DNA of 64,000 nt from Phenylobacterium sp. (GTDB lineage Bacteria > Pseudomonadota > Alphaproteobacteria > Caulobacterales > Caulobacteraceae): positions 86 to 64,085 of the forward strand of contig NZ_JBBKVV010000104.1 of assembly GCF_037968635.1 (NCBI RefSeq), given 5' to 3'. Position numbers and translations under genes: made by a program. The notes below the pieces were generated by a model. The model did not search any database and was not told the DNA's origin. It worked only from the letters and a program-made list of their open reading frames with translations. Of this stretch, positions 1,536 through 19,654 are shown piece after piece. Positions within the stretch are counted from its first letter, which is position 1, and each line of letters opens with the position of its first letter.

Positions 1536-1552
1536 GAGCACGTGAAGCGAGC

Positions 1553-4102: not shown

Positions 4103-4135
4103 CCCGGCGCTCCCCGCAGGTTGATCTTAAAGCGA

Positions 4136-4184: not shown

Positions 4185-4292
4185 TTTTCAGGGAATACGC
4201 AGTCCTACCCGGTCAGAGCCCGTAGCCTTACGCGTCGCGCGCTAGGCGAGAGCGCGCGAAACTCTTCCGCATGCACAGCTGCGGAGTTGGCC

Positions 4293-4595: not shown

Positions 4596-4635
4596 AGCTG
4601 AAGCCTTGCAGGCCAGAACTGAGACAAGGACCTGG

Positions 4636-4878: not shown

Positions 4879-6446
4879 AGTACTTGCGACTAGCCGTTTG
4901 GCTGATCGTCGGCTTCTTCGGTGGAAGCCTGCTCATGAACATCGCGCTCTATGCGGCGCGGTTCGCTGGACACCCCATTTGGCCAGCCTGGCTGCTTCCG
5001 CTCCAGGTGGCCGGAGAGGTTCTCGGCGCATTCTCTGGCTATCTTTGGTGGCGGTTCAAGAACCGACCGCTTCGGTCGGACGTCCATGGTTCGGCGCACT
5101 TTCAAGGCGCCAAGATCACCAGGGCCACCCTCGGGGTGAGTCGCGGCCTCATTGTCGGTCGCGACAGACGCGGGGAACTTTTGCGTTACGACGGACCCGC
5201 GCACCTGCTGACAATTGCACCGACCCGATCTGGCAAGGGCGTCGGCGCGATCATCCCGAACTTGCTCACGACGGACTACTCGATCCTTTGCATCGATCCG
5301 AAAGGCGAGAACGCCCGCATCACGGCTCGCGCACGTGCGTTGCGCGGCCCAGTGCATGTCCTCGATCCGTTTGGAATCTCGGGTGAGCCCTGCGCGGCGT
5401 TCAATCCACTGAGCCGGTTGGACCCGGCCGGTGTCGACCTAGCGGAAGACGCGGCAATGATCGCCGATGCTTTGGTCTACGACCCGCCCGGCCAGGTGAG
5501 TGAGGCGCACTGGAACGAGGAGGCCCGCGCGCTCATCGCCGGGCTCATTCTCCACATTGTGACGAACCGATCTCCCGCCCACCGGTCGCTTGCAGCGGTT
5601 CGCGCCCTCCTCACTACCACGCCTGAGAAGTTCGATCAGGCGCTCTTTGACATGCAAGGTAGCTACGCTGCTCGCGGTCTCGTGGCCCGCGCCGCCAACC
5701 GGCATCTCAGCAAGAGTGAACGTGAGGGCGCGGGCGTTCTGTCGGCCGCTCAGAGGCACACCCACTTCCTCGACAGCCCGCGCATGGTACGGGTGCTGCA
5801 GAAGTCCGACTTTGCTTTTAGCGATCTCAAGCGAGGGCCAACCAGCGTCTTCCTGGTGCTGCCACCGGAGCGCCTGGCGACGCATGCTCGCTGGCTGCGG
5901 CTGTTGGTAGTCCAGGCGATCGGTGAGTTGGCGCAGACGCAGGCGAAGGATGCGCCACCACCGCATCCCGTTCTGATGATGCTTGACGAGTTTGCGGCGT
6001 TGGGACGCGTCGAACCTGTCGAGCGTGCCTTCGCACTGATGGCCGGCTACGGCCTGCAACTCTGGGCGATCCTGCAGGACCTCCATCAATTGAAGGGCCT
6101 GTACGGAGAACAGGCTGGAAGTTTCCTATCCAACGCTGGCCTGATCCAGGTCTTCAATGTCGCTGACATCGACACCGCGACCTGGGTGTCCCGCACCCTT
6201 GGCGCAGCGACGGAAGTGTTCAACACGATGTCGTGGGCGGAACGGCCGGAGTCCCGACCTTGGTGGCGGTCTTACACGCCCACAACGACGCTCAACCTCA
6301 GTCGCCGAGACCTCATGACGCCCGACGAGGTGATGCGTCTGGGTCAGGAAGAGTTGCTACTCCTGCGCCCTGGCATGTCGCCCGTGGTGGCGCAGAAGGT
6401 TCGCTACTATCGGGACCAGCAGTTTGCGGGCCTCTTCGATGCATAG
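4875..6446 (+). CDS. traG: Type IV coupling protein TraG/VirD4
   Basis: N-terminal TM segments, Walker A 'APTRSGKG', 'IDPKGE', Walker B 'MMLDEFAALG', 'ILQDLHQL', 'LMTPDEV'. Confidence 0.93.
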   Translation: MKYLRLAVWLIVGFFGGSLLMNIALYAARFAGHPIWPAWLLPLQVAGEVLGAFSGYLWWRFKNRPLRSDVHGSAHFQGAKITRATLGVSRGLIVGRDRRGELLRYDGPAHLLTIAPTRSGKGVGAIIPNLLTTDYSILCIDPKGENARITARARALRGPVHVLDPFGISGEPCAAFNPLSRLDPAGVDLAEDAAMIADALVYDPPGQVSEAHWNEEARALIAGLILHIVTNRSPAHRSLAAVRALLTTTPEKFDQALFDMQGSYAARGLVARAANRHLSKSEREGAGVLSAAQRHTHFLDSPRMVRVLQKSDFAFSDLKRGPTSVFLVLPPERLATHARWLRLLVVQAIGELAQTQAKDAPPPHPVLMMLDEFAALGRVEPVERAFALMAGYGLQLWAILQDLHQLKGLYGEQAGSFLSNAGLIQVFNVADIDTATWVSRTLGAATEVFNTMSWAERPESRPWWRSYTPTTTLNLSRRDLMTPDEVMRLGQEELLLLRPGMSPVVAQKVRYYRDQQFAGLFDA

Positions 6447-6522
6447 TCGGACTGACGACCGCAACTCGCGATTGGACCGGGAGCAGCTTGTCACCTCCCC
6501 CGGCTCAGGCGACATACATGAG

Positions 6523-7443
6523 ATGAAGACCAGTCTGGATCACCTACCGGCGGGCAAGCGACGCGAGCTCGAACTCGTCGTGGAGATCCTGGCGGCATCA
6601 TTTGCAAAGGCAGTTGCGGATCGAAAGGTCGACCGTCTGAAGAACGGCAAGATCCTGAAAATCATCCTATTTGGATCGTATGCTCGCGGGGACTGGGTCG
6701 AGGATCCGGTCGGACGTTACTTCTCTGACTTTGACTTACTCGTGGTGGTGGACGACGACGATCTAGCCGACACGGTTGAGTTCTGGGATATCGCTGAGGC
6801 TCGCCTGCTTAAGGAGCTGTCGGCTGGCAAAGTCCTTCGGACACCGGTCAACTTCATCGTCCACAGCCTGCAGGATGTGAACCACCAGCTTGAGCGTGGT
6901 CGCTACTTCTTCGTCGATATCGTCCGCGACGGCGTCCTGCTGCTTGACGTCCCAGGTCACCCTCTCACCACTCCGAAGGATCTGGCCCCAGCAACGGCGC
7001 TCGACGAAGCGAAGGGGTATTTCGACCAATGGCTGGAGAGCGCCGCAGACTTCGAGGATCAGGCTACCTACGCGGTTTCGAAAGGTAGGCTCAAAAACGC
7101 AGCCTTCCAAATGCATCAGGCGGCGGAGCATTTCTACAACTGCGTTCTGCTGGTTCTAACCCTCTACACACCAAAGTCCCACAATCTAGTGCGCCTTCGA
7201 AATCTGGCCGAGCCACTTGACCCTCGCCTGATCGCCGTCTGGGCCTTCGACACAAAGTTTGAAAAGCGCTGCTTCGAGTTGTTGCGCGCGGCGTACATCA
7301 AGGCGCGCTACTCGCGGCACTTCAAAGTCACGGCGGACGAGTTGGAGTGGCTCGGTCAGCGGGTGGCAGCGTTAAAGACAGCGGTCACAGCCGTTTGTGA
7401 GGAGCGGTTAGAAGCGTTGGAAACGCAGATCGCTGCCGAATAG
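6523..7443 (+). CDS. Fused minimal nucleotidyltransferase (MNT) + HEPN domain protein
   Basis: 'LFGSYARGDW...SDFDLLVVV' NTase motif followed by HEPN-like 'AAFQMHQAAE...PKSHNL...AYIKARY'. Start taken at MKTSLDHLP. Confidence 0.88.
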   Translation: MKTSLDHLPAGKRRELELVVEILAASFAKAVADRKVDRLKNGKILKIILFGSYARGDWVEDPVGRYFSDFDLLVVVDDDDLADTVEFWDIAEARLLKELSAGKVLRTPVNFIVHSLQDVNHQLERGRYFFVDIVRDGVLLLDVPGHPLTTPKDLAPATALDEAKGYFDQWLESAADFEDQATYAVSKGRLKNAAFQMHQAAEHFYNCVLLVLTLYTPKSHNLVRLRNLAEPLDPRLIAVWAFDTKFEKRCFELLRAAYIKARYSRHFKVTADELEWLGQRVAALKTAVTAVCEERLEALETQIAAE

Positions 7444-7648
7444 GTCGCTTGTGCGCCAGCAGCCGACATTGGCGCGCCTCCGGAAACCGGACGTTCAGAT
7501 TGCGGGCACGCGACGTTTTTGTAACAGGCTGAGTGAGGGGGGCCCGCTGCGGCCTAGGCCATCACCCGCCGTTCGCGCCGCCTCTCTCCCGCTCGGCCTT
7601 TCCCACAATCCGGCGAAAACGAAAGTCCAGGCACCGCGGACTTTTTCC

Positions 7649-10600
7649 TCAGGGCTCGTAAGGTTCCAGATCCTTCGCCTTTGGCTTGGAAGTGCCAGGA
7701 TAGGACTGCCGCAGCCGCCGAGCGAGATCGCCCAGCCCGTCCTTACGTGTCAGCGCCGTCTCGACCAGTAGGGCTGCGGCGCGTCGTGGGGTCCCGCCCG
7801 CCTTCAGACCCTTGCGAAGATTGGGTTCGAGCTTGGCGAGGTCGAGCTCTGCGAGCGTAGCGTCGAATGTCTCGGGCGCGATGGTCCGAACAAGCCTCAC
7901 TACCGATACGAAATGAGGCTCATCCTTTGCGGGCCCCTCAGTCAGGGCCTTGACGAGGTTCTTCTTCGCGCAGGCATAGGCCGGCCCGAAAAGTTCGCGC
8001 CGGTCCTGGGCGACATAGCCAAGCACACCGAACGTGAAGCTCCAGTGGTGGCCAAACTCAATTGCTCTGCCGGCCTCCAGATGCTGTAACGCGACCTTGG
8101 GAGCAATCACCGCGAGCCGCGCGGGCATGACATTGATCTCGTCGGCCCGCTCCCCGATCACAGCCCTGATGGCGGCCAATGGCCGCTTGCCGCGACAGCA
8201 GATCCCCAGCAAGTGCTCGGCCTCGCGGAAGAGATGCGACCAATCCTCGCCGATGGTGTTTCCCAGTTGCTTCCAGTCCAACGCCAGGACGGTCGCCTCA
8301 TAGATTTTCGGCGCAGCCTTGCTCAGGAAGAGCAGCAGGTAACCGGCTTGCTGGAAATTACGGGTCTCGGTAGCCGACAGCTGCCCCGCCAGAACCGCCG
8401 GCTCGAAGCCCTCGCACAGCCGGGCGGCCAACGCCTTATGACGGGCGCGAGGCGCATACTTTCCGGTATAGGCGCCGAGGATGTCGAGAATCCTCAAGGT
8501 CTGGTGGGCGATGTCGTCGAGCTGGTGAAAGGTGTCGACTGGGCTAGCCTTCAGGAGCGTCACAGCCATAGGCGTCACGGCCTCGACCATGTCGAGCCCC
8601 AGATCCTCGTCAAACCATCCGGTCGACTTGGTGAGATTGGAATAGGCGCCGATCCAGACGTCCTGCGGCCACTCACGCCCCAATCGCTTCAGCGCTTCTC
8701 GGTCCACGGCGGCGCTGAACCTGGCTTTCCAGGCCTCTGGCCATGCGTTGCCCGTGAAGCTGATGTATTCGCCAAGGTGGTATGCACTCTGAGGTGCGGC
8801 GGCCGACACGCTCGCGGCCGCCTTCTCCGGATCGGCGGCCTCGAAAAGGGCTTCCACGATGGCAGAGCTGTCACGCATGGCATTGATCAGCCGGCGAACC
8901 CCGTAGCCCATTGGCTCCAACGGCGCCTCGATCCAGCGCGGTAGAAGTTCAAGGCCGTCGGCCAAGAGGATCTCGAACGGTGTCTGGTTTAGGTAGTGAA
9001 GTTCGACCAGGATCAGGCTGGCGAAGGTTCGCTCTTCAGGATCCTTAGCGGCCCAGCATCGCGCCACGAGCCGCTTCTCGACCTCCGGATCCATCTCGTA
9101 GAGCCATTGATTGTCCCAACGGACCTGACGCATCTCGTCCAGGAACAGCCGAAGGCCGGCGAGCGGATGGACCGGATCGCCGAGCGTCGCATCGAGGAGG
9201 CGACTAAAGGCTTGCCGCTCCTCGCCCTCCTGCAAAGCCATGATCCGCCGGATGGCCACCGACGCGAACCGCTGGTGAGGTGTGCGCAGGTCCGAAGGGC
9301 CCAGGAGCAGCCGTTCATCAACCAGCCAGTCAATCGCGTTGTCGATGGTTCCCGTCTGCAGCCCTGCGACCGCGAGCAAGACCTCGAACTCGGCCCGTTC
9401 GGGCCTAGCGTCGCGAGAGGCCAGTTGGCACATGGCCGCGGCGGCCAGCACGAGGTCCGCGCCCTTGGCTCGTGCGGCCCGCGCCGCATCCGAGGCTCTC
9501 GCCTCCCCGCCGCCGAGAATGAAGCAAAACTGCCAGGGGAGCTCGGCATGGGTCTCGGCAAAGTCTAGGCGGCGGTCTAGGGACTCTTCGAACGGCTTGT
9601 CCCCTATCCGGCTATCGGCGCTCCGGACCGCCGCTAGGGTCGCGGCCCGGTCGCGCCGCAGCTCGGCGGCGATCACCTGGACCGCGCGCTTGGGGTCCAT
9701 GACGATCGCGCCGCGGCCGGCCCCGCCGTGGCCCAAGGCGTTGTGGGTCGACAGCAGCAGTCGGTCCTGACGAGTCTCGCTCTCGGCCAAAGCCAAGAGA
9801 TGCGGGGCAGTTAGGTGAGCGTCGTCGATGAGGCAGAGTACCTTGCCGGCGGCGGGCGGCCAGTCGATGACCGGAGCCCGAGGATCGGTCATCTGGAACA
9901 CCTTCCAACCGTCGTCGGCGAAGGCCTTGGCTGCTTGCCAGGCGCAGACCGACTTGCCCGCGCCTGGCTGGCCTTCCAAGCGAGAAGAGTACGCGCGGCG
10001 AAGATCGGCGACCGCTGCGTTAGCCTCGGGCAAGGTTGGACAGGCCAAGACGTCTGACGGGCCGAGCCCTCGCCCCATCAGCGCCGGGCCAAGATCTCGC
10101 GACTGCGCGAAGGTCACTCGTCGCCAGTAGGCATGGGTTGGCGCGGGGGACGGCGCCTGGGCCAGGTGCTTGATGTCCTCCCGCAGGCCCCTGATCTCGT
10201 CGGCAGAGACCGCCTTGAGTGCGGGCGCGAGGGCCGAGAGATCAAGGCCAAGCTCGCCATAGAACTGGTCGAGCACCTGGGGGTGGGCGACGAGAAGGCC
10301 GCAGATATCCTCCCAGCCGAGAATACGGACCGGAAAGGCGCCCCCGGCGACGCGCGCTGCCGAAATCTCGCGTAAGGCTTCCTGCAGCTTGGCGTCGGCA
10401 GGCGCGGTGGTGGCGAAGGTCCAGTGGCTGAGCTCCGGGGCGAAAGTTTCGGCCTTGGCCAGTTCGCGTCTGACCTCGGCGATCGTGGCCCTGGTGCCGT
10501 AGGTTCCGTCCTTGCCCTTGCACTGGACGCCGAAGAAAGTCTCGTCACGCCCGGCGGGAGCCCCCCAGACGTCGACACCGGCCTGGGCCTGGCCGCCGCG

Positions 10601-10714
10601 ACCGTTCTTCTGCGCCAGCTTGTCGGACCAGACTGCCCGGAACAGCGCCAAGCACAAATCCTCGAAGGCCTGCCAGTGCTTTGGTGGCGGGATCTGCTTT
10701 TCCCGGGCGTCCAT
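7649..10714 (-). CDS. PD-(D/E)xK (Mrr/Cap4-like) nuclease fused to STAND-type P-loop NTPase and long helical C-terminus; putative NLR/Avs-like defence protein
   Basis: N-term 'WQAFEDLC...GRGGQAQAGVDVWG...GVQCK'; Walker A 'GQPGAGKS'; Walker B 'LCLIDDAH'; 1021 aa. Confidence 0.75.
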   Translation of the reverse strand: MDAREKQIPPPKHWQAFEDLCLALFRAVWSDKLAQKNGRGGQAQAGVDVWGAPAGRDETFFGVQCKGKDGTYGTRATIAEVRRELAKAETFAPELSHWTFATTAPADAKLQEALREISAARVAGGAFPVRILGWEDICGLLVAHPQVLDQFYGELGLDLSALAPALKAVSADEIRGLREDIKHLAQAPSPAPTHAYWRRVTFAQSRDLGPALMGRGLGPSDVLACPTLPEANAAVADLRRAYSSRLEGQPGAGKSVCAWQAAKAFADDGWKVFQMTDPRAPVIDWPPAAGKVLCLIDDAHLTAPHLLALAESETRQDRLLLSTHNALGHGGAGRGAIVMDPKRAVQVIAAELRRDRAATLAAVRSADSRIGDKPFEESLDRRLDFAETHAELPWQFCFILGGGEARASDAARAARAKGADLVLAAAAMCQLASRDARPERAEFEVLLAVAGLQTGTIDNAIDWLVDERLLLGPSDLRTPHQRFASVAIRRIMALQEGEERQAFSRLLDATLGDPVHPLAGLRLFLDEMRQVRWDNQWLYEMDPEVEKRLVARCWAAKDPEERTFASLILVELHYLNQTPFEILLADGLELLPRWIEAPLEPMGYGVRRLINAMRDSSAIVEALFEAADPEKAAASVSAAAPQSAYHLGEYISFTGNAWPEAWKARFSAAVDREALKRLGREWPQDVWIGAYSNLTKSTGWFDEDLGLDMVEAVTPMAVTLLKASPVDTFHQLDDIAHQTLRILDILGAYTGKYAPRARHKALAARLCEGFEPAVLAGQLSATETRNFQQAGYLLLFLSKAAPKIYEATVLALDWKQLGNTIGEDWSHLFREAEHLLGICCRGKRPLAAIRAVIGERADEINVMPARLAVIAPKVALQHLEAGRAIEFGHHWSFTFGVLGYVAQDRRELFGPAYACAKKNLVKALTEGPAKDEPHFVSVVRLVRTIAPETFDATLAELDLAKLEPNLRKGLKAGGTPRRAAALLVETALTRKDGLGDLARRLRQSYPGTSKPKAKDLEPYEP

Positions 10715-10871
10715 GGTCTAGGCGTCTCCTCCCGCGGCGACTCAGCCTGCGGTGCCCGGCATCTTGGCAAGCTCAGAGGTTTTCGTCCCAAACGGCCGGC
10801 GCGGCGCTTCAACGGCTAGACCCTTTCAGACGCTGAAGCAGTGAACCCAACCGGACCCAAGCCAACGGGAA

Positions 10872-11138
10872 CTAGAACTGGATGCGGCCGTGGCCGGCGA
10901 CGCCATTGAGCTGTGTCATGAGGAAGCTCAAATCCCCGTCCAAGCCACGAACAAGGACGCCTTCGAATTGAGGTTCATAATGCGCCGCTGGCCCAATGGT
11001 GTGGCCAGGAAATTCGCTCTCTCGGCGGAAGGTCGCGAAGTCCTCGGCGTTGAGGGCAAAGCGATGCGGTGTGTCATGCTCACACCCTCCACATCTATGG
11101 CGATCCGTTGGCGTGCAGCAATGTCGGCTCTGGCTCAA
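10872..11138 (-). CDS. Small hypothetical protein, possibly frameshifted at its 5' end
   Basis: The C-terminal ~65 aa look protein-like. The best RBS+ATG (GGAGG...ATG at 11077) is out of frame with them. Confidence 0.3.
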   Translation of the reverse strand: MSQSRHCCTPTDRHRCGGCEHDTPHRFALNAEDFATFRRESEFPGHTIGPAAHYEPQFEGVLVRGLDGDLSFLMTQLNGVAGHGRIQF

Positions 11139-11290
11139 TCAACGGCGTCTAGATCAGGTTTCGAGACGCGCCTTGCACCGGTTTTCGCTCAGCTTTAGCG
11201 TTGGGCGGGATGCTACGCGGCAGCGTGGGCCGCTCGCGGGCAACGACTAGATCGCGACCGCCCGCCGACCTCGTAATCAAAAGGATCGCC

Positions 11291-13033
11291 GTGCGGATCG
11301 TCAGGGTCGAAATCCAGAACTACCGCGGCATTGGGACGCTCGACTGGCAGCCCTCGCCTGGCATGAACTGCCTGATTGGGCCTGGCGATTCCACCAAGAC
11401 CACAATCCTCGATGCGATCGAGCTGGCCCTCAATCCCCGGTCAAACTATCTGGGCGATGACACCGACTTCCACGATCTCAACTTCGATCTCCCCGTCAGG
11501 GTGACGGTGACTCTGGTCGGCATTCCGGCCGAGTTCTGCATCGATACGCGCTACGGGCTGCATCTGCGCGGCTGGGACGAGACGGCCGCGAAGCTCGTTG
11601 ACGAACCGGGCGATGGGCTGATGGAGGCGTTGTCGGTTCGGGTCGAGATTGATCCATCGACCCTCGAAGGGCGCTGGGCGATCTATAATGATCGCTTGGC
11701 CGAGGACGGCGATCCGCCGTCCTTGCGCTACAAGGATGCGCAGCAGCTGGCGACGACGCGGCTGGGTCCGTACGCCGAGCGGCATCTGGGCTGGGGCCGA
11801 CAATCGATCCTCAATCGCATCGGCGAAGGCGGGCGGATGAGCGAGCAGCTGGCCAGCGCCAGCCGCGCCGCCCGCGCGGCGTTCAAGACCAGCAATAAGG
11901 ACGTGTTCGCCATCCCCACAGCTCGTGCCGAGAAGTTGGGCAAGCACTTCTCGGTCCGGGTTCGGCAGGCCTTTACCGCCGAACTCGATGTCCAAGGCTC
12001 GGCGATCACCTCCGGCGGCGTCGTTCTCCATGACGGCGACCTGCCGCTCCGCACCTTGGGCACCGGGTCTTCGCGGTTGATCGTCTCGGCCCTGCAGCAC
12101 AATGCCGGCGGGTCTCATATCGCCCTGGTCGATGAGATCGAACATGGCCTTGAGCCACACCGCATCGCCCGGCTGCTGAAATATCTCCGCAACCCGCCGG
12201 CGCTGGAGGATGAGGCCGCCAAGGCTGGCACCGCCGCGCCGCAGACCTTCCTGACCACCCATTCCAACGTCGTGATCCGCGAACTCGACGCAGGCGACAT
12301 CCACGCCGTTCGCTCCCATGAGGGCCGAACCCAGGTGCGGTCAGTTGAACAGGCCGCCGCGACCCCGGACATCGCCCAGCGCCAGCTGCGCGCGTCGCCC
12401 GAAGCCTTCCTGGCGAGGCGCATCCTGGTCGGCGAGGGCCGGACGGAATGTGGCCTGTTGCGCGGTCTGGACGCTTGCTGGATCGCGGACGGCAGAGACT
12501 CCTTCGCGCTCCGCGGCGTGGTGGCGATCGACGGCGGCGGCGTCCCTAACGCCGTGACCCTGACCCAGTCCCTGCTCGATTTGGGATACGAGTGCTTGGC
12601 CCTGCTCGACTCCGACAAACCGCCGTCTCAAGAATCCGTGGCCAAGGTCGAAGCGGTTGGCGGCGTGGTCTTGGAATGGGGAGACGACTGCTCGACCGAA
12701 GAGCGCCTCTTCCGTGATGTCCCGTGGGCGACGGTGGACGCTTTGGTGGGGCTGGCAATCCAGTGCAACACCGAAGACAGCGTGCTGGCGACCCTTCGGG
12801 CGACCTGCAAGTCCATGAAGCTCGCCGAACCGGTGGATCTGAGCCTTCCGGTCAGCCTCGATACACCTCAAGTCCGCGCCGCGCTTGGTCTCACCGCGCG
12901 CGAGAAGTCCTGGTTCAAGACCATTCCGCGCGGCGAACGGCTCGCGGCGCTGGTGTATCCGTGCCTGAAGCACATCCCGGCCACACCCTTGGCCAAGCAT
13001 CTGTCTCATCTGCGCGCGTGGGTCGATGGCTGA
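11291..13033 (+). CDS. gajA: OLD-family ATP-dependent endonuclease (ABC ATPase + TOPRIM), GajA-like
   Basis: 'MRIVRVEIQNYRGI', Walker A-like 'GPGDSTKT', signature 'LGTGSSR', Walker B 'LVDEIEHGLEP', H-loop 'LTTHS', TOPRIM 'VGEGRTE...LLDSD'. GTG start at 11291. Confidence 0.85.
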   Translation: MRIVRVEIQNYRGIGTLDWQPSPGMNCLIGPGDSTKTTILDAIELALNPRSNYLGDDTDFHDLNFDLPVRVTVTLVGIPAEFCIDTRYGLHLRGWDETAAKLVDEPGDGLMEALSVRVEIDPSTLEGRWAIYNDRLAEDGDPPSLRYKDAQQLATTRLGPYAERHLGWGRQSILNRIGEGGRMSEQLASASRAARAAFKTSNKDVFAIPTARAEKLGKHFSVRVRQAFTAELDVQGSAITSGGVVLHDGDLPLRTLGTGSSRLIVSALQHNAGGSHIALVDEIEHGLEPHRIARLLKYLRNPPALEDEAAKAGTAAPQTFLTTHSNVVIRELDAGDIHAVRSHEGRTQVRSVEQAAATPDIAQRQLRASPEAFLARRILVGEGRTECGLLRGLDACWIADGRDSFALRGVVAIDGGGVPNAVTLTQSLLDLGYECLALLDSDKPPSQESVAKVEAVGGVVLEWGDDCSTEERLFRDVPWATVDALVGLAIQCNTEDSVLATLRATCKSMKLAEPVDLSLPVSLDTPQVRAALGLTAREKSWFKTIPRGERLAALVYPCLKHIPATPLAKHLSHLRAWVDG

Positions 13034-14471
13034 TCCGCACGTTGACGACCTGGCCGCCAGGATCTGCAGGGTACAGGCCGGGTCGATCGTGGCGGCGGCC
13101 GGCTGCGGCAAGACGGAGCAGATCGTCAACGCCACCGTCCTGAGCCAGGGACGGCGGCTCATCCTCACCCACACCCACGCCGGGGTCGACGCCCTGCGCA
13201 AGCGTATGCGGGAGAAAGGGGTGTCGACCAGCCAGTACGCCATCGACACCATCGCGGGCTGGTGCCTGCGCTACGCGGCCGCCTATCCGCGCCGGTCCGG
13301 GCTGAAAGTGGCCACGCCCAAGGGTGATCAAGACTGGACAGCGGTCTATGCTGGGGCGATCGCGTTGCTGGAGAGCGGTGCTGTCACCCAGGTTTTGAAG
13401 GTCTCCTACTGCGGTGTGTTCGTCGACGAGTACCAGGACTGCGGCGGCGCTCAGCATCAGGTCTTCGCGGCTCTGTCGAAAGTGCTGCCCGTCTGCGTGT
13501 TCGGTGATCCCCTGCAGGCGATCTTTGATTTTGGGCAGACGCCCGTCGATTGGCGCGGCGAGGTGTTTGCGCGGTTTCCCCAGCTTTCGACCCTGACCAA
13601 ACCCTGGCGATGGCATCGGCATGGAAACGCCGAGATGGCCAATTGGCTAGAAACGGTGCGCCCCGTCCTCGAGGCTGGACGCCCGCTGGATCTTGCGGCC
13701 CGACCCGCTTGCGTGACCTGGGAATGGTTGCCTGACCAGGACGGGCCACGCCAATCAAAAATTGTCTCCACCTGCCTCAAGGCGATGAAAGGCGAGGGAA
13801 ACCTGGTGGTGATCGCCGATCCGGCCAACCTCAATGGACGGGCGTTGATCGCCAAGAAGCTCGGCCGACAGGGCTTTTCCAACATCGAGCCCATCGAGTG
13901 CAAGACGGTGTATGCCGCGGCCAAGAGGCTGGCGGCGACCTCGGGGCCAAGGCGCCTGGTCGCGCTCCTGGCGTTCCTCGAGCAATGCATGTCCGGCGTC
14001 GCGAAGGGTGAGTTTCTCAAGGCCGTCGCGTCGCGCAAGGCTGGCGGCAAGCTCGGTAGCGCCAAGTTCGGGGACCTTGTCGAGCTTGGCGTGGCCTTCG
14101 ACCATGGTGCGGATGATGAGGTCTGTCTGGCCTTGGTCGATGGGTTCGCCGCCCAGGCGATGACGGTCGTCTTCCGCCGTGAAATGCTATATTCAATGCG
14201 TTCGGCGCTGAGGATGAAGGTGGCGGGCGATGCCGCAGATCTGTCGGAAGCCTTGTGGCACGTGCAGACGAAGATCCGACACGCGGGTCGGCAGATCCCC
14301 TACTATAGCGTCGGCAGCACGCTCCTGGTGAAGGGGTTGGAGTTTGCCAACGTCGTGGTCATCCACTCGACGAACATGAACAACAAGGACTGGTACGTCG
14401 CCTTGACGCGGGCGACCCACCGGCTGACGATCCTGTCGCCGAAAGCGGTGATCGCTCCAGGGTTCGCGTGA
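13026..14471 (+). CDS. gajB: UvrD/Rep-like SF1 helicase, GajB-like
   Basis: 'AAAGCGKT', 'FVDEYQD', 'FGDPLQAIF', 'VKGLEF', 'YVALTRA'. Overlaps the gajA stop by 8 bp. Confidence 0.85.
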   Translation: MADPHVDDLAARICRVQAGSIVAAAGCGKTEQIVNATVLSQGRRLILTHTHAGVDALRKRMREKGVSTSQYAIDTIAGWCLRYAAAYPRRSGLKVATPKGDQDWTAVYAGAIALLESGAVTQVLKVSYCGVFVDEYQDCGGAQHQVFAALSKVLPVCVFGDPLQAIFDFGQTPVDWRGEVFARFPQLSTLTKPWRWHRHGNAEMANWLETVRPVLEAGRPLDLAARPACVTWEWLPDQDGPRQSKIVSTCLKAMKGEGNLVVIADPANLNGRALIAKKLGRQGFSNIEPIECKTVYAAAKRLAATSGPRRLVALLAFLEQCMSGVAKGEFLKAVASRKAGGKLGSAKFGDLVELGVAFDHGADDEVCLALVDGFAAQAMTVVFRREMLYSMRSALRMKVAGDAADLSEALWHVQTKIRHAGRQIPYYSVGSTLLVKGLEFANVVVIHSTNMNNKDWYVALTRATHRLTILSPKAVIAPGFA

Positions 14472-14505
14472 GCACTTGGCCCATGCGCCTCGAGACCGTG
14501 AGCGC

Positions 14506-15048
14506 CTAGATCTTGGACGACGCCTTCCAGGCGGCGACGAAACTGGGCGTCAGCTCGGCGAGACGGTCTAGGAGAACCTCCAAGGTCATCGGTGGATTCT
14601 TTAGCCGGGCGACCTGCGCGGTCAGAGCGACCGCCAGGGCTTGAGGCGTCTTTTCCAGCAACAGGCAGAGAAAGTCGTCCGGGCTAATGGCGGTCACGCC
14701 GGGCGGCAGCTTGGCGAAGTCCTTAAGGTTGCTGGTGACGATCAGGCTGGCCCCGCCCTGGACCGCGCACGCCGCGACGTGGCGGTCCTTGACGTGGTTG
14801 GGCATGGTGAGGATCAGGGGCTCGTGGCCCTCGACGAAGGCGTCCTCGAACTGAAGATCAAGGGTCGCGCGAAGACGTTTGGCCTTGGGGGCGGTCAGGC
14901 GGCCGTCCGCCACCAGGTTGCGGGTAGCTTCCTCGACGATGAACACGCTCCAGCGCGGCTGAAAACAGCCGGCCGCCGCCGCCGACAGAAGGGTGTCGCG
15001 CAGGGGCAACGGATAAAGGACATCGGCGTCGAGGACAGCGACGATCAC
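14506..15048 (-). CDS. PIN domain protein (PIN_3-like VapC ribonuclease toxin)
   Basis: 'VAVLDADVLY', 'IVEEATRNL', 'KDRHVAACA', 'IVTSNLKDF', 'SPDDFL'. Confidence 0.9.
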   Translation of the reverse strand: MIVAVLDADVLYPLPLRDTLLSAAAAGCFQPRWSVFIVEEATRNLVADGRLTAPKAKRLRATLDLQFEDAFVEGHEPLILTMPNHVKDRHVAACAVQGGASLIVTSNLKDFAKLPPGVTAISPDDFLCLLLEKTPQALAVALTAQVARLKNPPMTLEVLLDRLAELTPSFVAAWKASSKI

Positions 15049-15785
15049 TGGGGTTTGGCCTTTCGGATCAGCGGCCGACGGCCACCAGGCTTCAGGGCCG
15101 TTTCGGAGGGCTTGGACAGGAGCTCTTCGGCGGTCGCGGCGGACTTGGGCCCGGTCTTGGCCTTCTGCGGGTTGGCGAGCATCTGGGCGAGCTTGGACTT
15201 CGGCGCGGGCTTGGCCGTCTTGGGCTCGCGCGAGGCCCGTAGGCTGGCGGCCACGTCGGTGGCACCCAGCTCCTGCGCGCGTTCCACGAAGGCATTGTAG
15301 GTCGCCGCCTGCAGGCCGGCGGCCTTTAGTTTCAAGGCCGGGTCGCCGCTCGGATCAGTCTTGGCCTGGTAGAGCGAGACGATGACCGCGTGCGGGTTGG
15401 GCAGGAAGGCCAGGCCCATGGCGTGCGCCCCGCTGGGCGCGACCTCGACGAAGCCGAGATCGACCAGGCGACGCAGGCGATCCTGGAAGGTTCGGGGCCC
15501 GCGCTGTCCGGCGAACCCAGCCGCGAAGGCCAGGTCCGGCATGCGGCCCAGGCGCACGAAGGCGTTGTCCCAGGTCGCGCACCACAAGGCGACATAGGTG
15601 TCCGACAACGGCTGGCCCTTGGACAGCTCGTCCAGGATCCGGCAGATATAGGGCATGGTCTTGGGCATGGTGGTGAAGCCATGGAAGCGGTTGCGATCCC
15701 ACATCCGCGCCTCGGCGTCAGGGAACAGACTGTCGCGCAGCTCGACGTCGCGATCGCGGATGGCCTTGCCTTTCACGCTCGGCAT
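15045..15785 (-). CDS. Hypothetical protein with probable winged-HTH core and Lys/Pro/Ala-rich tail
   Basis: AAAGGAG RBS before ATG 15785; 'LAFAAGFAGQRGPRTFQDRLRRLVDLGFVEV' is wHTH-like; its stop overlaps the PIN start (GTGA). Confidence 0.7.
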   Translation of the reverse strand: MPSVKGKAIRDRDVELRDSLFPDAEARMWDRNRFHGFTTMPKTMPYICRILDELSKGQPLSDTYVALWCATWDNAFVRLGRMPDLAFAAGFAGQRGPRTFQDRLRRLVDLGFVEVAPSGAHAMGLAFLPNPHAVIVSLYQAKTDPSGDPALKLKAAGLQAATYNAFVERAQELGATDVAASLRASREPKTAKPAPKSKLAQMLANPQKAKTGPKSAATAEELLSKPSETALKPGGRRPLIRKAKPQ

Positions 15786-16101
15786 GGGAGGGCTCCTTTG
15801 AGGCGGACATAAATTCCGCTGATTGGTAGGCTTATAGAATGAAACATCAATAGAGTCAGCGACGTAGATATGCACTCAGCCCATTTAACCTGGCGCATTG
15901 ATGTCAGAAGTGATTGCGAGCTTGTCACATCAAGGGCAACTCGAATGGTGGCCTGGCTTGTTTGTGCCTATCGGGTCGCGTAAGCTACTGATCTAGCACG
16001 GGTAATAGTCTATCCCGATGTGCTGGCGGTGATCGGGTGCTCGGCTGTGCTGACCATGTGCTCCCGGTGCTGACTGGGGGATCGGCCAAGGGGGAGCCTT
16101 G

Positions 16102-16119
16102 GTTGCGTTTGTAGCGTTT
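16102..16119. promoter_or_regulatory. Tandem 9-bp repeat, candidate operator upstream of the excisionase-like HTH gene
   Basis: GTTGCGTTT/GTAGCGTTT directly upstream of ATG 16135, in the divergent intergenic region. Confidence 0.35.
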
Positions 16120-16134
16120 ATACCGCACCTGACG

Positions 16135-16647
16135 ATGATGACCCGCACGACTGCCTCCAGAAAGATCGACAAGCTGGCTCGCCACGCGGTGCCGGCGGTG
16201 CTGTCGTTCGACGATCGCCAGATGGCTGCGCAGCTGTCGGACCTGTTGTTGGGCGCGGCTGGCGGGCCTGGCCGGCTGTGCCTAGCGCGCGGCGATGGCT
16301 ATTCAATCGCACTGTCTCCCGCCTTGGTGAGTGTCCTAGAAACGGTCGCGGAAATGGTGACGGGCGGCGCCAGTGTCACCGTCCTGCCCAGCCACACCGA
16401 GCTGACGACCCAAGAGGCGGCCGACACGCTCAATGTGTCGCGCCAGTACCTCGTGCGCCTGATCGATCGCGGCGACCTGCCCTCCCACAAGGTTGGCGCT
16501 CACCGCCGGGTGCGCGCCGAGGACCTTGCCGCCTATCGTCACCGCCGCGACCAGGCGCGCCGCGAGGCCTTGGATGTTCTGGCCGCCGACGCGCAGGACG
16601 CGGGCGGCTATGACGCGCCGATGAATTTTGGGCCGCGTCGGCGCTGA
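16135..16647 (+). CDS. Excisionase-family (HTH_17/MerR-like) DNA-binding protein, typical PIN_3 antitoxin partner
   Basis: 'LTTQEAADTLNVSRQYLVRLIDRGDLPSHKVGAHRRVRAEDLAAY'. Start 16135 or 16138. Confidence 0.88.
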   Translation: MMTRTTASRKIDKLARHAVPAVLSFDDRQMAAQLSDLLLGAAGGPGRLCLARGDGYSIALSPALVSVLETVAEMVTGGASVTVLPSHTELTTQEAADTLNVSRQYLVRLIDRGDLPSHKVGAHRRVRAEDLAAYRHRRDQARREALDVLAADAQDAGGYDAPMNFGPRRR

Positions 16648-17303
16648 ACGGTGGGTTGCAGTTTCAGGCCCGCTCGGAGAACCAATCGAAGGCGGTGATC
16701 CGGCGGGGAGAGAGACCGTATCGTAGCCGTAGATCTCTTGGGCAAGGCGGGCCAGTTCGGTTTCGCAGTCGGCCTCGGCGAGGTCGATGAACCAGGCCTT
16801 GGGGCGTGCGGCCTTGTGCCGCTCCAGCGATAGCCGCGCGCCCTGAGGCGGTCATTCATCCCGAACGGCGAACCCTCGGCGACGACGCGTCAGGTTGGGC
16901 TAAGCGCCGCGTTCAACATGCGGGCCAGAGCGGTGCGGCCACTGGGCAGGAGGCTGGTCTGGATCAAGGCTAGGCAATCGTTTTGCGCCCGGCGCCGTCG
17001 AAGAAGCACCCGCACTGACTGGCGAGATATCGCCATTGCCGGGAAGCGGACGTTCCCAAGGTCAGCGATGAGCCCTCAGCGGAAGTTGCGTACCTCAGCG
17101 GCAGCTAGATGGCTGAAGCTGTTGGATACTCCGTCGCAACGTCGGAAACGTAGCGCGGAAATCGCGTGGAATGGGCGCTGATGTGGGATCAGGACGCTTT
17201 CAATCGGCCCCCCTAGGGAGAACGAAAGCGAAAGAGAACCGGAACATGAATGCGCTAGATTTGCACCCCAACCCCGACAATTAGTTGATATTACTCAACA
17301 ATC

Positions 17304-17360
17304 TCACCAGTCCATCATGGGGGCAATGGACAAGCGATGGGGGGAAAACGGCACGGGCAT
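17304..17360 (-). pseudogene. dusA: Truncated 5' end of tRNA-dihydrouridine synthase A left at the island attachment site
   Basis: The minus strand reads ATG...MPVPFSPHRLSIAPMMDW-TGA. (S/V)APMMDW is the conserved DusA N-terminal motif. Confidence 0.85.
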
Positions 17361-17413
17361 TGGGTCTCAGGCGGCGAACGAGGGGAGCCGCGCGGGGGCG
17401 GCTCCCGCCCGCC

Positions 17414-19471
17414 TTACCAGATACGGACCCGATCCGCAGGCGCCAGATAGAGCTTCTGGCCCGGCTTGACGTCGAAGGCCGTATACCAGGCGTCGAAGTT
17501 GCGCACCTCATAGGCCCGGAACTGGCCCGGCGCATGGGGGTCGGTGGCGATGATCTGGCGCAGGAAGGGCTCGCGCATCAGGTTGCGGTAGCTCTGGGCG
17601 AAGGACATGAAGAACCGCTGGTCCCCGGTCAGCCCGCCGATCACCGGGGCGGGCTTGCCGCCGAGGCTGGCGTGGTAGGCGTCCAGAGCCGCGGCCACGC
17701 CACCCAGGTCCCCGACGTTCTCGCCAAGAGTAAGCTTGCCGTTGAGCTTCAGGTCCGGCAGGGCCTGATAGGCGTCATACTGCGCGGCCAGCTTGCCGGT
17801 GGAGGCCTCGAAGGCCTTGAGGTCCGCCGGCGTCCACCAGGTGATCAGCCGCCCCTGTTCGTCGAGCTTGGAGCCCTGATCGTCGAAGCTGTGGCTGATT
17901 TCGTGGCCGATCACCGAGCCGATGGCGCCGTAGTTCACCGCCGGGTCGGCGGCCGGATCGAACCAGGGCGGCGACAGGAAGCCGGCCGGGAAGGCCAGCT
18001 TGTTCAGCGGCCCGGCATTGAAGGCGTTGACCGTCTGGGGCGTCAGGGTCAGCCACCACTGGGCGCGGTCCACGGGCTTTTCCATTTCCGCAAGATTGCG
18101 GGCGTATTCGAACGCCGCCGCCCGCTGGCTGTTGCCGAAGGGGTCGCCCCGCACCACCGTCAGGGTCGAATAGTCCCGCCACTTTTCGGGATACCCCACC
18201 TCGACACGCAGATTGGCGAGCTTGAGCTTGGCGCGGACCTTGGTCTCCGGCGCCATCCAGTCCAGGCGGTCGATGCGGCGGGCGAAGGCGGCCTTCACCT
18301 CTCCCACCAGGTCCTCGATCTTGGCCTTGGCTTCCGGGGGGAAATACTGGGCCGCATAGGCCTTGCCCACCGCGTCGCCCATGGCGAGGTTCACCGCGCC
18401 GACGCCGCGCTTCCAGCGGGCGTTGAGCTCCGGCGTGCCGGTGAGCGCCTTGCCGTGGAAAGCGAAGTCGGCCTCGACGAAGGCCTTGGGCAGGACCGGC
18501 GCGGCGTCATTGATCAGGCGCGAAGCCAGGTAGTCGCGCCAGGTCTCCAGGTCAGTCTCGCCGGCCAGCTTCGCGAAGCCGGTGATGGCCGAGGTCTGGT
18601 TGAGGATCAGCACCGGCCGGGCGCCAAATCCCACCCCCTCGAGATAGGTTTTCCAGTCGAAGCCCGGCGCGGCGGCCGCCAGTTGGGCCGGGGTCATGGG
18701 ATTGTAGACCTTGTCGGCGTCGCGGGAATCCACACGGTTCCAGTGAACCTTGGCCAGGGCCGTCTCGAAGGCGAGGATCCGATCGGCGCGCGCCGCGCCG
18801 TCCGCAAACCCGGCCAGGGTGAAGATCTGGGTGAGGTAGGTCTTGTAGGCCGCCCGGGCCGCGGCGAACTTCGGATCGTCGGTCAGGTAGTAGTCGCGAT
18901 CCGGCAGGCCCAGGCCACCCTGCACCAGTTCCGAAGAGCCCTTCGTGGGGTCCCTGGCGTCTATGCCCACGGCCGGATAGACCGGGAAGCTGGGCTGGGG
19001 AGACCCGTAGCCGAAGGGGCGCTGCTTGCGCTCCAGGGCCGCCATGGTTCTCGCTAGGTCCTGGGGAGTCTTCACCGCGGCGATCATCGCCAGGTCGGCC
19101 TTCAGCGGGGTGATCCCGGCCGCCTCGATGGCCGCCTCGTCCATGAAGCTGGCGTAGAATTCACCGAACTTCTTCGCATCGGCTGAGCCCGGAGATTTGG
19201 CGCCGTCCTCGACGATGCCACGCACCCTGGCCAGACTCTGCTCGCGCAGGCGCGCCACGTCGCTGTAGTTGGAGCGGTCGGCGGGGATGGTCGTGCTCTT
19301 CAGCCACCCACCGTTCACGTAGGCGAAGAAATCGTCCCCAGGCGCGACGGATTTGTCCATGCTCGCGAGGTCGAGACCGACCTCGCCGAATTCCGGTTTG
19401 ACCGCCGCGCCGGCGGTTCCGGCGACCAGCAGAACGGCCACAGCCGCCGCACACATGAATTGACTGCGCAT
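17414..19471 (-). CDS. M13 family (neprilysin-like) secreted metallopeptidase
   Basis: Signal peptide, 'GDDFFAYVNGGW', 'VNAFN', 'GHEISHSFD', 'GENVGD', 'DPHAP'. Confidence 0.95.
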   Translation of the reverse strand: MRSQFMCAAAVAVLLVAGTAGAAVKPEFGEVGLDLASMDKSVAPGDDFFAYVNGGWLKSTTIPADRSNYSDVARLREQSLARVRGIVEDGAKSPGSADAKKFGEFYASFMDEAAIEAAGITPLKADLAMIAAVKTPQDLARTMAALERKQRPFGYGSPQPSFPVYPAVGIDARDPTKGSSELVQGGLGLPDRDYYLTDDPKFAAARAAYKTYLTQIFTLAGFADGAARADRILAFETALAKVHWNRVDSRDADKVYNPMTPAQLAAAAPGFDWKTYLEGVGFGARPVLILNQTSAITGFAKLAGETDLETWRDYLASRLINDAAPVLPKAFVEADFAFHGKALTGTPELNARWKRGVGAVNLAMGDAVGKAYAAQYFPPEAKAKIEDLVGEVKAAFARRIDRLDWMAPETKVRAKLKLANLRVEVGYPEKWRDYSTLTVVRGDPFGNSQRAAAFEYARNLAEMEKPVDRAQWWLTLTPQTVNAFNAGPLNKLAFPAGFLSPPWFDPAADPAVNYGAIGSVIGHEISHSFDDQGSKLDEQGRLITWWTPADLKAFEASTGKLAAQYDAYQALPDLKLNGKLTLGENVGDLGGVAAALDAYHASLGGKPAPVIGGLTGDQRFFMSFAQSYRNLMREPFLRQIIATDPHAPGQFRAYEVRNFDAWYTAFDVKPGQKLYLAPADRVRIW

Positions 19472-19654
19472 CCACGCCCCCTTGGAAATTTGTCGGTGCA
19501 GAATGGCGGGCGACCGCCAAGCTGTCCTCACCAAACGATCGGCGGAAGATGAACTTTCATCCACGTCACTCGCCGCGGTGCGGCGCGCGCTCCCCCATCC
19601 AACGCGACCTTGCAGGCCAGATACCGGGGCCGCGCCCTCACTGACCGCCTCGGC

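What the first reader, a model, noticed from the sequence alone, without database searches (positions are those of the whole stretch)
17284..17360. Hidden attachment site: 18-codon DusA N-terminus ending in a stop, next to a small inverted repeat
The minus strand 17360-17304 encodes MPVPFSPHRLSIAPMMDW*, below the ORF-track threshold. The reading breaks exactly after the conserved APMMDW. Just inside the island is GTTGA-N6-TCAAC (17284-17299) in an AT-rich patch, a candidate integrase or accessory-factor binding site.
Basis: partly seen in the sequence, partly recalled or inferred. Interest (0 to 1): 0.65.

Follow-up and report, generated by a model that had tools for sequence, protein, structure and literature searches.

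The report
Displaced dusA start at island junction
This short stretch is the original start of the tRNA-modification gene dusA, cut off when a mobile genomic island inserted into that gene. It is an ordinary example of a well-described type of island attachment site.

Summary
Window 17360-17304 (minus strand) reads MPVPFSPHRLSIAPMMDW-stop, and GTTGA-N6-TCAAC lies at 17284-17299.

The peptide is the native 5' end of dusA, left at the integrase-distal junction of a dusA-specific integrative element. The partner junction is on another contig of the same assembly (C11). There a tyrosine integrase lies divergent from an intact 345-aa dusA whose first codons are supplied by the island. The two junctions share a 21-bp repeat (19/21 identical) with a 12-bp identical core, ATGATGGACTGG. 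This matches the att sequences published by Farrugia et al. 2015. The assembly holds exactly two copies of the core.

The inverted repeat is at chance level: the window has 119 repeats of this type. It is also not conserved in 14 related junctions. Its core-distal half does fall inside a position-locked IHF-like site, and this is the only WATCAANNNNTTR match in the window. Further out lie a GTGCA-N6-GCGCA dyad and phased TTCGC-type repeats. Both motif kinds recur on the integrase-side arm. They are better candidates for protein-binding sites than the inverted repeat.

Verdict: a new member of a known kind, of modest interest.

The parts
17304..17360 (-). Displaced native 5' end of dusA: 18 codons (MPVPFSPHRLSIAPMMDW) plus a TGA stop supplied by the island
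   Evidence: The N-terminus matches native same-genus DusA starts such as MPPPPHRLSVAPMMDW, and the displaced MPVPISSHRLSVAPMMDW in Phenylobacterium MAG Go_SlAct_bin_515.
17307..17327 (-). 21-bp att repeat ATTGCCCCCATGATGGACTGG. Its copy at the other junction on C11 is ATTGCACCTATGATGGACTGG (19/21 identical)
   Evidence: It matches the published dusA att sequences ...GCCCCTATGATGGATTGGAC / ...GCTCCAATGATGGACTGGAC.
17307..17318 (-). 12-bp core ATGATGGACTGG, identical at both junctions. Strand exchange must have occurred inside it
   Evidence: Native-type bases lie to its left and island-type bases (TGAGA, versus ACGGA in dusA) to its right.
17278..17290 (-). IHF-like site TATCAACTAATTG, a perfect WATCAANNNNTTR match, 28 nt from the first base of the core
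   Evidence: It is the only match in the window on either strand (0.15 expected). A relaxed form sits at the same offset in 14 of 15 related arms.
17284..17299 (.). It is at chance level and not conserved as a repeat
17251..17266 (-). Dyad GTGCAAATCTAGCGCA (two G[T/C]GCA units with an 11-bp period), 52 nt from the core start. Candidate pair of arm-type integrase sites
   Evidence: The dyad is at the same offset in 12 of 15 related arms and present in 13 of 15. The same kind of dyad lies beside the int start codon in 57 of 63 integrase-side arms, including GTGCAAAACGGGTGCA on C11.
17218..17245 (-). Run of TTCGC-type repeats: GTTCCG, GTTCTC, TTTCGC, TTTCGT and GTTCTC
   Evidence: The motif is present in 14 of 15 related arms. 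Its reverse form (CGAAA, two to three copies) is present in 62 of 63 integrase-side arms.
17361..17413 (-). Native dusA upstream leader with a G+C-rich hairpin (about 17381-17405). This is the chromosomal side
   Evidence: About 75-100 bp are conserved next to the displaced dusA start in Phenylobacterium MAG Go_SlAct_bin_515.
1..17306 (.). The part of the integrated element that lies in the window. It runs off the contig start
   Evidence: Ti-type TraA/MOBQ relaxase at 1553-4102(-); VirD4/TraG coupling protein at 4875-6446(+); HEPN/nucleotidyltransferase; STAND NTPase; AAA_21 plus UvrD pair; PIN; HTH_17. G+C is 63.9% against 67.3% for the rest of the window.
16099..16647 (+). HTH_17 (excisionase-like) ORF about 650 bp from the junction. 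It is one of two candidates for the recombination directionality factor, or it may be the antitoxin partner of the neighbouring PIN gene
   Evidence: Pfam HTH_17 E=1e-13. Weak matches to PHROG RDF/excisionase families, E=5e-7. It is not conserved next to related junctions.
17414..19564 (-). M13 peptidase gene, the first chromosomal gene upstream of the displaced dusA start
   Evidence: There is no ortholog above 62% identity in 40 relatives.

Best explanation
The stretch is the integrase-distal junction of a dusA-specific integrative, mobilisable or conjugative element. I call it attL here; naming conventions differ between papers.

What is shown. A heterobivalent tyrosine integrase is encoded on contig C11, next to the other junction. 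The circular element's attP recombined with attB, which is codons 12-18 of the chromosomal dusA. Strand exchange took place inside the shared 12-bp core ATGATGGACTGG. Integration split dusA. The native leader and first 18 codons stayed at this junction and now run straight into an island TGA. At the other junction the island supplies a new start and synonymous copies of the HRLSIAP codons, so dusA stays an intact 345-aa ORF.

What is inferred. The island also seems to supply a new promoter; the only support is a consensus match. The roughly 110 bp of island DNA next to the remnant is the P' arm of attP. It contains an IHF-like bending site at +28, a G[T/C]GCA dyad with an 11-bp period at +52 (probably bound by the integrase N-terminal arm-binding domain), and phased TTCGC-type repeats (integrase or excisionase sites). 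The same dyad and repeat motifs lie on the P arm beside the int start codon. That position suggests they also autoregulate int. Excision by Int plus an HTH_17-type excisionase would rejoin the remnant to the rest of dusA and restore MPVPFSPHRLSIAPMMDWTDRHCRAF...
For: Remnant and stop.

Partner junction: C11 carries a 354-aa PF00589 integrase divergent from a 345-aa ORF that scores 497.6 bits on the DusA equivalog NF008774 (cut-off 269).

Junction alignment: a 12-bp identical core inside a 21-bp repeat that is 19/21 identical. Native sequence lies left of the core at attL and right of the core at attR.

Copy number: exactly two core copies in the assembly.

Coding constraint: all 6 nucleotide differences between the native and island-supplied H-R-L-S-I-A-P codons are synonymous (read).

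Published att sequences match, and Phenylobacterium zucineum HLK1 and Caulobacter sp. K31 are listed as hosts of dusA islands (Farrugia 2015, PMC4482086).

Relatives: 489 related integrases. In 62 of the 80 fetched loci the integrase lies next to the same core, and most of the rest have an MMEW-coding variant. Of 15 related genomes searched, 12 have a second core copy on the same contig 11.6-149 kb from the first, and a 13th has it on another contig.

Arm architecture.

Integrase: the catalytic R, H-x-x-R, H and Y residues are present (sequence). The AlphaFold model (pLDDT 85.6) of an 86%-identical homologue has a three-strand-plus-helix N-terminal domain. It aligns over its full length to lambda Int in 1z1g.

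Phages: three phages with 37-40% identical integrases carry a dusA-type core next to int. Two of them, and a similar single motif in the third, have their own short repeats on both arms.
Against: The two junctions lie on different contigs of a 201-contig draft. The contig ends do not overlap, so physical continuity and island size are not shown.

No empty attB with this exact upstream sequence was found among species representatives.

The motif definitions for the arms were made after seeing the alignment, and the compared islands are related to one another.

Assigning motifs to IHF, Int or an excisionase is inference. Nothing was tested for binding.

The island's attP differs from attB directly right of the core (TGAGA versus ACGGA), unlike most relatives. 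This might reduce recombination efficiency.
Confidence: 0.92

Rival explanations
1. The junction is a fossil. The element integrated long ago, can no longer excise, and the remnant is only a scar.
For: Identity between the junctions stops right after the 12-bp core (TGAGA versus ACGGA), whereas most relatives share 17 bp. No excision evidence could be obtained.
Against: The integrase ORF is intact with its catalytic residues. Both arms keep the conserved motif set at the conserved offsets. A relaxase and a coupling protein are intact. A 12-bp identical core is long enough for the 6-8 bp overlap that tyrosine recombinases use (established knowledge).
Confidence: 0.12
2. GTTGA-N6-TCAAC is a real palindromic operator for a dimeric accessory protein, such as the excisionase or an island regulator.
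For: It has perfect 5-bp arms in the only A+T-rich patch near the junction. Three related arms keep 4 of 5 pairs.
Against: The window has 119 repeats of this type. Pairing across 14 related arms equals the shuffled expectation: 27 versus 25.6 of 70, with 689 of 2000 shuffles at least as high. The columns of the core-proximal half are poorly conserved. The conserved half is explained by the IHF-like motif.
Confidence: 0.06
3. The match is a chance short ORF or an assembly or binning artefact, and has nothing to do with the int-dusA locus on C11.
For: The assembly is a fragmented draft, and the two junctions are on separate contigs.
Against: The 21-mer is unique in the window, with 0.01 expected. 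The genome has one dusA, and that gene lacks its native start. About 100 bp of upstream leader plus the remnant are conserved at the equivalent junction of a related genome. The adjacent arm has the family-specific architecture.
Confidence: 0.02

Closest known systems
dusA-specific genomic islands and prophages with dusA-associated integrases (DAIs), Farrugia et al. 2015, NAR 43:4547 (PMC4482086). Examples are A. baumannii D1279779_RGP05, and the islands listed there for Phenylobacterium zucineum HLK1 (135 kb, T4SS) and Caulobacter sp. K31 (185 kb).
   Same: A tyrosine integrase lies next to the 5' end of dusA. There are 21-bp semi-conserved direct repeats around ...CC(N)ATGATGGA(Y)TGG. The island supplies a replacement 5' end, and the original 5' end is left at the far junction. 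The host clade is the same (Caulobacterales), and the cargo includes conjugation genes.
   Different: The att site itself shows no difference in kind. This copy has TGAGA instead of ACGGA right after the core, so a stop codon directly follows Trp18. The arm motifs described here (IHF-like site, GTGCA dyad, TTCGC repeats) are not mentioned in that paper: its text has no occurrence of IHF, arm-type or excisionase.
SGI1-like dusA-specific integrative elements of Vibrio (IMEVchUSA3), Durand et al. 2021, PLoS Genet 17:e1009669 (PMC8409611).
   Same: [quoted passage not shown]
   Different: Those elements use the PrtN-type factor RdfN and an MpsA relaxase, and depend on IncC helper plasmids. Here no PrtN domain was found (the control was silent, so this is inconclusive). 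The relaxase is a Ti-type TraA/MOBQ, and the RDF candidates are HTH_17 proteins.
Bacteriophage lambda attP/Int/IHF/Xis intasome.
   Same: By inference this element works in the same way. The integrase has an N-terminal arm-binding-type domain: the model aligns over its full length to lambda Int in 1z1g. Repeated arm motifs lie on both sides of the core, and an IHF-consensus site lies between the core and the arm sites.
   Different: There is no detectable sequence relationship to lambda Int (no PDB hit by sequence). The target is inside a coding sequence that the element repairs. No binding has been tested.

Membership tests
dusA-specific genomic island / DAI family (Farrugia 2015) | Tyrosine recombinase gene directly adjacent to the 5' end of dusA | tested here: met
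   On C11 a 354-aa PF00589 integrase lies about 100 bp from, and divergent to, a 345-aa ORF that passes the DusA equivalog NF008774 (497.6 bits, cut-off 269).
dusA-specific genomic island / DAI family (Farrugia 2015) | Semi-conserved 21-bp direct repeats at both ends that match the published att sequence | tested here: met
   ATTGCCCCCATGATGGACTGG in the window and ATTGCACCTATGATGGACTGG on C11. The published sequences are GCCCCTATGATGGATTGGAC and GCTCCAATGATGGACTGGAC.
dusA-specific genomic island / DAI family (Farrugia 2015) | The island replaces the 5' end of dusA and keeps the reading frame. The original 5' end remains at the other junction | tested here: met
   The island-supplied start is ...VQNQAHRLSIAPMMDW on C11. 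The native remnant is MPVPFSPHRLSIAPMMDW* in the window. All 6 nucleotide differences in the HRLSIAP codons are synonymous.
dusA-specific genomic island / DAI family (Farrugia 2015) | Integrase homologous to recognised DAIs | tested here: inconclusive
   It was not compared directly with the A. baumannii D1279779 integrase. Indirect evidence: 489 relatives, of which 62 of the 80 fetched lie next to the dusA core. It is 37-40% identical to phage integrases whose attP carries GC(N)CC(N)ATGATGGAYTGG.
dusA-specific genomic island / DAI family (Farrugia 2015) | Excision as a circle that restores wild-type dusA | not testable with these tools
The predicted attB product reads MPVPFSPHRLSIAPMMDWTDRHCRAF..., like native same-genus DusA.
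SGI1-like dusA-specific IEs (Durand 2021) | RdfN (PrtN domain, PF11112) as the recombination directionality factor | tested here: inconclusive
   No PF11112 hit in the small ORFs near either end or in the six-frame genome search. That search rang in no control genome, so absence is not proven.
SGI1-like dusA-specific IEs (Durand 2021) | MpsA-type atypical relaxase and SGI1 backbone | tested here: not met
   The relaxase is a Ti-type TraA/MOBQ: NF010464 at 1260.9 bits and NF041496 MobQ at 243.9 bits.
Lambda-type heterobivalent integrase / complex attP | N-terminal arm-binding domain plus repeated arm sites on both sides of the core and an IHF site | tested here: inconclusive
   The fold model has a strand-strand-strand-helix domain at residues 3-45 and aligns over its full length to lambda Int in 1z1g. 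Motifs are conserved on both arms, and there is a single IHF-consensus match in the window. There are no binding data.

The most novel reading that the evidence does not exclude
The roughly 110-bp island arm next to the remnant shows an intasome layout for dusA-specific integrases that the two key papers do not mention. It has an IHF-type bend site at a fixed +28, an 11-bp-period G[T/C]GCA dyad at a fixed +52 that recurs directly beside the int start codon on the other arm, and phased TTCGC/CGAAA repeats in opposite orientation on the two arms. The dyad beside the int start could tie integrase autoregulation to assembly of the recombination complex. Of three distant phage members, two (Klebsiella, Marinobacter) show a lineage-specific dyad on both arms, and one (BcepMigl) shows a single shared motif on both arms.
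Probability: 0.45. Interest if true: 0.35.

Novelty: new member of a known kind. Interest (0 to 1): 0.25.

Why it matters
The result fixes one end of a mobile, defence-rich island in a Phenylobacterium-like genome to the base pair. It also shows that a sub-threshold ORF can be used to find island borders.

It explains why the genome's only dusA has a foreign, A+T-richer start.

The comparison of 15 integrase-distal and 63 integrase-proximal arms gives concrete, testable candidate binding sites for the integrase, IHF and an excisionase. Only the 21-bp core repeat had been described for this widespread integrase family in the two papers I read. None of this changes the current understanding of dusA-targeting elements.

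Tried and rejected
1. I looked for the second core inside the window and found none. It is on contig C11.

2. I tried to join C104 and C11 through end overlaps of 21-127 nt and found none. The island's size and continuity remain open. It spans at least about 17.4 kb on C104 and 22.6 kb on C11.

3. I asked whether contig C24 is the missing middle of the island. It is 14 kb and holds the only VirB4-type T4SS in the genome, a second coupling protein and a resolvase. This cannot be decided.

4. I looked for synteny of the right flank. The M13 peptidase has no ortholog above 62% identity in 40 relatives, and none lies upstream of dusA there. Only the last ~100 bp before dusA are shared with one related MAG.

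5. I searched genome contigs for an uninterrupted attB with this exact leader. The only hit is the same related MAG, which is also occupied.

7. A sequence search of the integrase against the PDB gave no hit. A fold search was used instead.

8. The Pfam search for an arm-binding domain in Int residues 1-100 gave nothing meaningful.

9. No PrtN/RdfN was found, but the control was silent.

10. Genes next to related integrase-distal junctions are not conserved. Only the cis arm is shared.

11. I looked by eye for an imperfect CACC-N11-GGTG symmetry around the core. It is not seen in relatives, whose sequence there is ACGGA, so I dropped it.

Full report
**Observation.** The minus strand of window 17360-17304 reads ATG CCC GTG CCG TTT TCC CCC CAT CGC TTG TCC ATT GCC CCC ATG ATG GAC TGG TGA, which translates to MPVPFSPHRLSIAPMMDW*. 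GTTGA (17284-17288) and TCAAC (17295-17299) form a perfect 5-bp inverted repeat with a 6-nt spacer. They lie in a patch of 35% G+C in a genome of 67% G+C.

**Finding the partner junction.** The core does not recur in the window. The window is C104:86-64085 of a 201-contig, 4.1-Mb assembly.
- A Dus-family search of that assembly found two full genes. The one on C11 is DusA: NCBIfam equivalog NF008774 scores 497.6 bits against a cut-off of 269.
- About 100 bp upstream of it, and divergent from it, lies a 354-aa tyrosine recombinase (PF00589) with the R, H-x-x-R, H and Y catalytic residues visible in its sequence.
- This dusA begins ...VQNQAHRLSIAPMMDWTDRHCRAF, and its first codons are unusually A+T-rich.

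Aligned, the two junctions read:
- attL (window): CATCGCTTGTCCATTGCCCCCATGATGGACTGG|TGAGATTG
- attR (C11): CATAGACTGTCTATTGCACCTATGATGGACTGG|ACGGACCG

They share a 12-bp identical core (ATGATGGACTGG, window 17307-17318) inside a 21-bp repeat that is 19/21 identical (17307-17327). G+C-rich native sequence lies left of the core in the window and right of the core on C11. A+T-richer island sequence lies on the opposite sides. This is the pattern expected of attL and attR after a crossover inside the core.

All six nucleotide differences in the seven codons H-R-L-S-I-A-P are synonymous. The island copy has therefore been kept coding.

The pattern GCNCCNATGATGGAYTGG occurs exactly twice in the assembly, at these two places. 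I call the integrase-distal junction attL. Papers differ on the naming.

**The remnant is native dusA.** Same-genus genomes with G+C-rich, uninterrupted dusA starts read MPPPPHRLSVAPMMDWTDRHCR, PPFQPHRLSVAPMMDWTDRHCR, QHPPHRLSVAPMMDWTDRHCR and similar. A related Phenylobacterium MAG (Go_SlAct_bin_515) has a displaced remnant reading MPVPISSHRLSVAPMMDW. It is preceded by the same ~75-100-bp leader, including the hairpin GGGAGCCGCCCC..GCGCGGCTCCC.

**Comparison with the literature.** Farrugia et al. 2015 (PMC4482086) describe exactly this arrangement:
- integrases at the 5' end of dusA;
- 21-bp semi-conserved att repeats;
- a replacement 5' end that supplies beta-strand 1 of the TIM barrel;
- the original 5' end left at the other junction.

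Their supplementary att sequences (TCAGTAGCCCCTATGATGGATTGGAC and ...GCTCCAATGATGGACTGGAC) match the present core. Their table lists a 135-kb dusA island with a T4SS in Phenylobacterium zucineum HLK1 and a 185-kb one in Caulobacter sp. K31.

The integrase here has 489 tblastn relatives, the best of them in Phenylobacterium (up to 92% identity), then Caulobacter, Brevundimonas, Mesorhizobium and Rhizomicrobium. So the window probably comes from Phenylobacterium or a close relative. Of the 80 fetched loci, 62 have the integrase about 155-170 nt from CCNATGATGGAYTGG|ACNGAYCG, and most of the rest have an ATGATGGAGTGG variant. Of 15 such genomes searched, 12 have a second core copy on the same contig, bounding islands of 11.6-149 kb (one genome holds a tandem pair), and a 13th has its second copy on another contig.

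The integrase is also 37-40% identical to integrases of temperate phages. Klebsiella phage YMC16/01/N133, Burkholderia phage BcepMigl and Marinobacter phage AS1 carry a dusA-type core next to int.

**The element.**
- On the window side (1-17306) it carries a Ti-type TraA/MOBQ relaxase, a VirD4/TraG coupling protein, a HEPN/nucleotidyltransferase gene, a STAND NTPase, an AAA_21 plus UvrD pair, and PIN and HTH_17 genes. Earlier notes of this scan read this stretch in the same way.
- On the C11 side, inward from int, it carries a RelE/HTH_3 pair, a 127-aa HTH_17 gene, a secretin/prepilin-peptidase/T2SSF pilus cluster, and an RHS toxin with a CdiA-CT RNase A tip.
- The contigs do not overlap, so the element is at least about 40 kb and its full size is unknown.
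- The genome's only VirB4-type T4SS is on a separate 14-kb contig (C24), and its linkage is undecided. The element is at least mobilisable. Whether it is self-transmissible is open.

**The inverted repeat.** As a repeat it carries no information.
- The window has 119 perfect 5-N6-5 inverted repeats.
- In 14 related integrase-distal arms aligned in register, the two 5-mers are complementary at 27 of 70 positions. After shuffling partners the figure is 25.6, and 689 of 2000 shuffles reach the observed value.

**What is conserved in the arm.** The alignment of the arms shows a clear conserved architecture at fixed distances from the core.
1. *An IHF-like site at +28.* This is an A/T tract followed by CA(R)-N4-TT(R), present in 14 of 15 arms. 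In the window it reads TATCAACTAATTG (17290-17278), a perfect match to the IHF consensus WATCAANNNNTTR. It is the only match in the whole window on either strand, with 0.15 expected. The core-proximal half (17295-17299) lies in poorly conserved columns.
2. *A dyad of G[T/C]GCA units at +52.* The units have an 11-bp period or form the palindromic variant GTGTGCA-N5-TGCACAC. The motif is present in 13 of 15 arms, in 12 of them at exactly +52. In the window it is 17266-17251, GTGCAAATCTAGCGCA.
3. *Two to five TTCGC-type repeats.* In the window they span 17245-17218. They are present in 14 of 15 arms.

The integrase-proximal arm has the same two motif kinds. A GTGCA-N6-GTGCA dyad lies a few bases from the int start codon in 57 of 63 loci; on C11 it reads GTGCAAAACGGGTGCA. 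It is followed by two or three CGAAA repeats, the reverse of TTTCG, in 62 of 63 loci. The motif patterns were defined after seeing the alignments, and the islands are related to one another, so the shuffle controls overstate significance. Even so, the fixed offsets amid otherwise diverged sequence indicate constraint.

Two of the three distant phage attPs have their own short repeats on both arms: GTGCA-N6-GTGCA in the Klebsiella phage and GGAGCAC-N4-GGAGCAC in Marinobacter phage AS1. The third, BcepMigl, has a single GTAGCAAAC motif on each arm. According to Farrugia et al., the integrase is the only protein shared by all dusA elements (section 16). So the dyads are most simply read as arm-type integrase sites.

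An AlphaFold model of an 86%-identical homologue (pLDDT 85.6) has a three-strand-plus-helix domain at residues 3-45. It aligns over its full length with lambda Int in the tetramer structure 1z1g. This fits a heterobivalent integrase.

**Mechanism.**
- *Shown:* the split of dusA, the position of the crossover within 12 bp, the intact replacement gene, the intact integrase, and the conservation of the arm motifs.
- *Inferred:* IHF bends the P' arm at 17278-17290. The Int N-domains bind the dyads on both arms, and by binding next to the int start they also repress int. The TTCGC/CGAAA repeats bind Int or an excisionase. Excision rejoins 17360-17307 to the rest of dusA.
- The island-supplied dusA promoter is supported only by a consensus match: TTGAGA-18-CAAAAT.
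- *RDF candidates:* the 127-aa HTH_17 gene near int is conserved within 3 kb of int in 16 of 80 related loci. The HTH_17 ORF at window 16099-16647 is the second candidate. It is not conserved at related junctions and may instead be the partner of the PIN gene.
- The PrtN-type RdfN of Vibrio dusA elements (Durand 2021) was not found, but the control for that search was silent.

**Novelty and verdict.** This is a new member of a known kind, in a genus already listed as a host of such islands. The stop codon directly after Trp18 is a peculiarity of this copy: only 2 of 15 arms have an immediate stop. The arm architecture is a modest addition, because neither key paper mentions IHF or arm-type sites. 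Those text searches cover only the library held here.

Noticed in passing
L004 (G000:C11:1-20000) and L005: The integrase-side part of the island carries a secretin, a prepilin peptidase and a T2SSF platform protein (a type IV pilus-like cluster). It also carries a 2214-aa RHS protein ending in a CdiA-CT RNase A domain, and a second Big_9/cadherin/RHS gene that is cut by the contig end. A RelE/HTH_3 pair sits directly inside int.
   Followed up: partly
L197 (G000:C24, 14,078 bp): This contig holds the only VirB4-type T4SS of the assembly (VirB1, VirB4, VirB5, VirB6, VirB9 and VirB11-like genes). It also has a second, truncated VirD4, an AbiEii gene and a serine resolvase cut by the contig end. 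It could be the missing middle of the dusA island or a separate element.
   Followed up: partly
window 17414-19564 and rightwards: The M13 peptidase directly upstream of the displaced dusA start has no ortholog above 62% identity in 40 relatives. In the related MAG that shares the dusA leader, homology stops about 100 bp upstream of the dusA start. The 'chromosomal' flank may therefore be a variable region too. Earlier notes place a toxin-immunity pair and an IS1595 element at about 22.6-26.3 kb.
   Followed up: partly
L173/L186/L195 (G047:C109:56906, 117097, 126149): Three copies of the dusA core lie on one contig, 60 kb and 9 kb apart. This looks like a tandem array of two dusA-specific elements.
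   Followed up: no
L163 (Mesorhizobium abyssinicae LMG26967): The integrase-adjacent core is followed by non-dusA sequence (ACGGACTTCCTTTAATTTGT). This could be an attP form, a tandem junction or a disrupted dusA.
   Followed up: no
L118-L121, L126, L127, L139, L149: In Rhizomicrobium and some unclassified Alphaproteobacteria the core beside the related integrase is ATGATGGAGTGG, coding MMEW instead of MMDW. The att core appears to track the host's dusA sequence.
   Followed up: no
window 63612-63791: Four to five tandem 36-bp repeats lie inside a long minus-strand ORF (62784-63968) that runs to the window end.
   Followed up: no
L002 1486-1518 versus window 17340-17307: The island-supplied and native copies of codons H-R-L-S-I-A-P differ at six nucleotides, and all six changes are synonymous. 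The island copy uses A/T-ending or rarer codons (AGA, TCT, GCA, CCT).
   Followed up: yes
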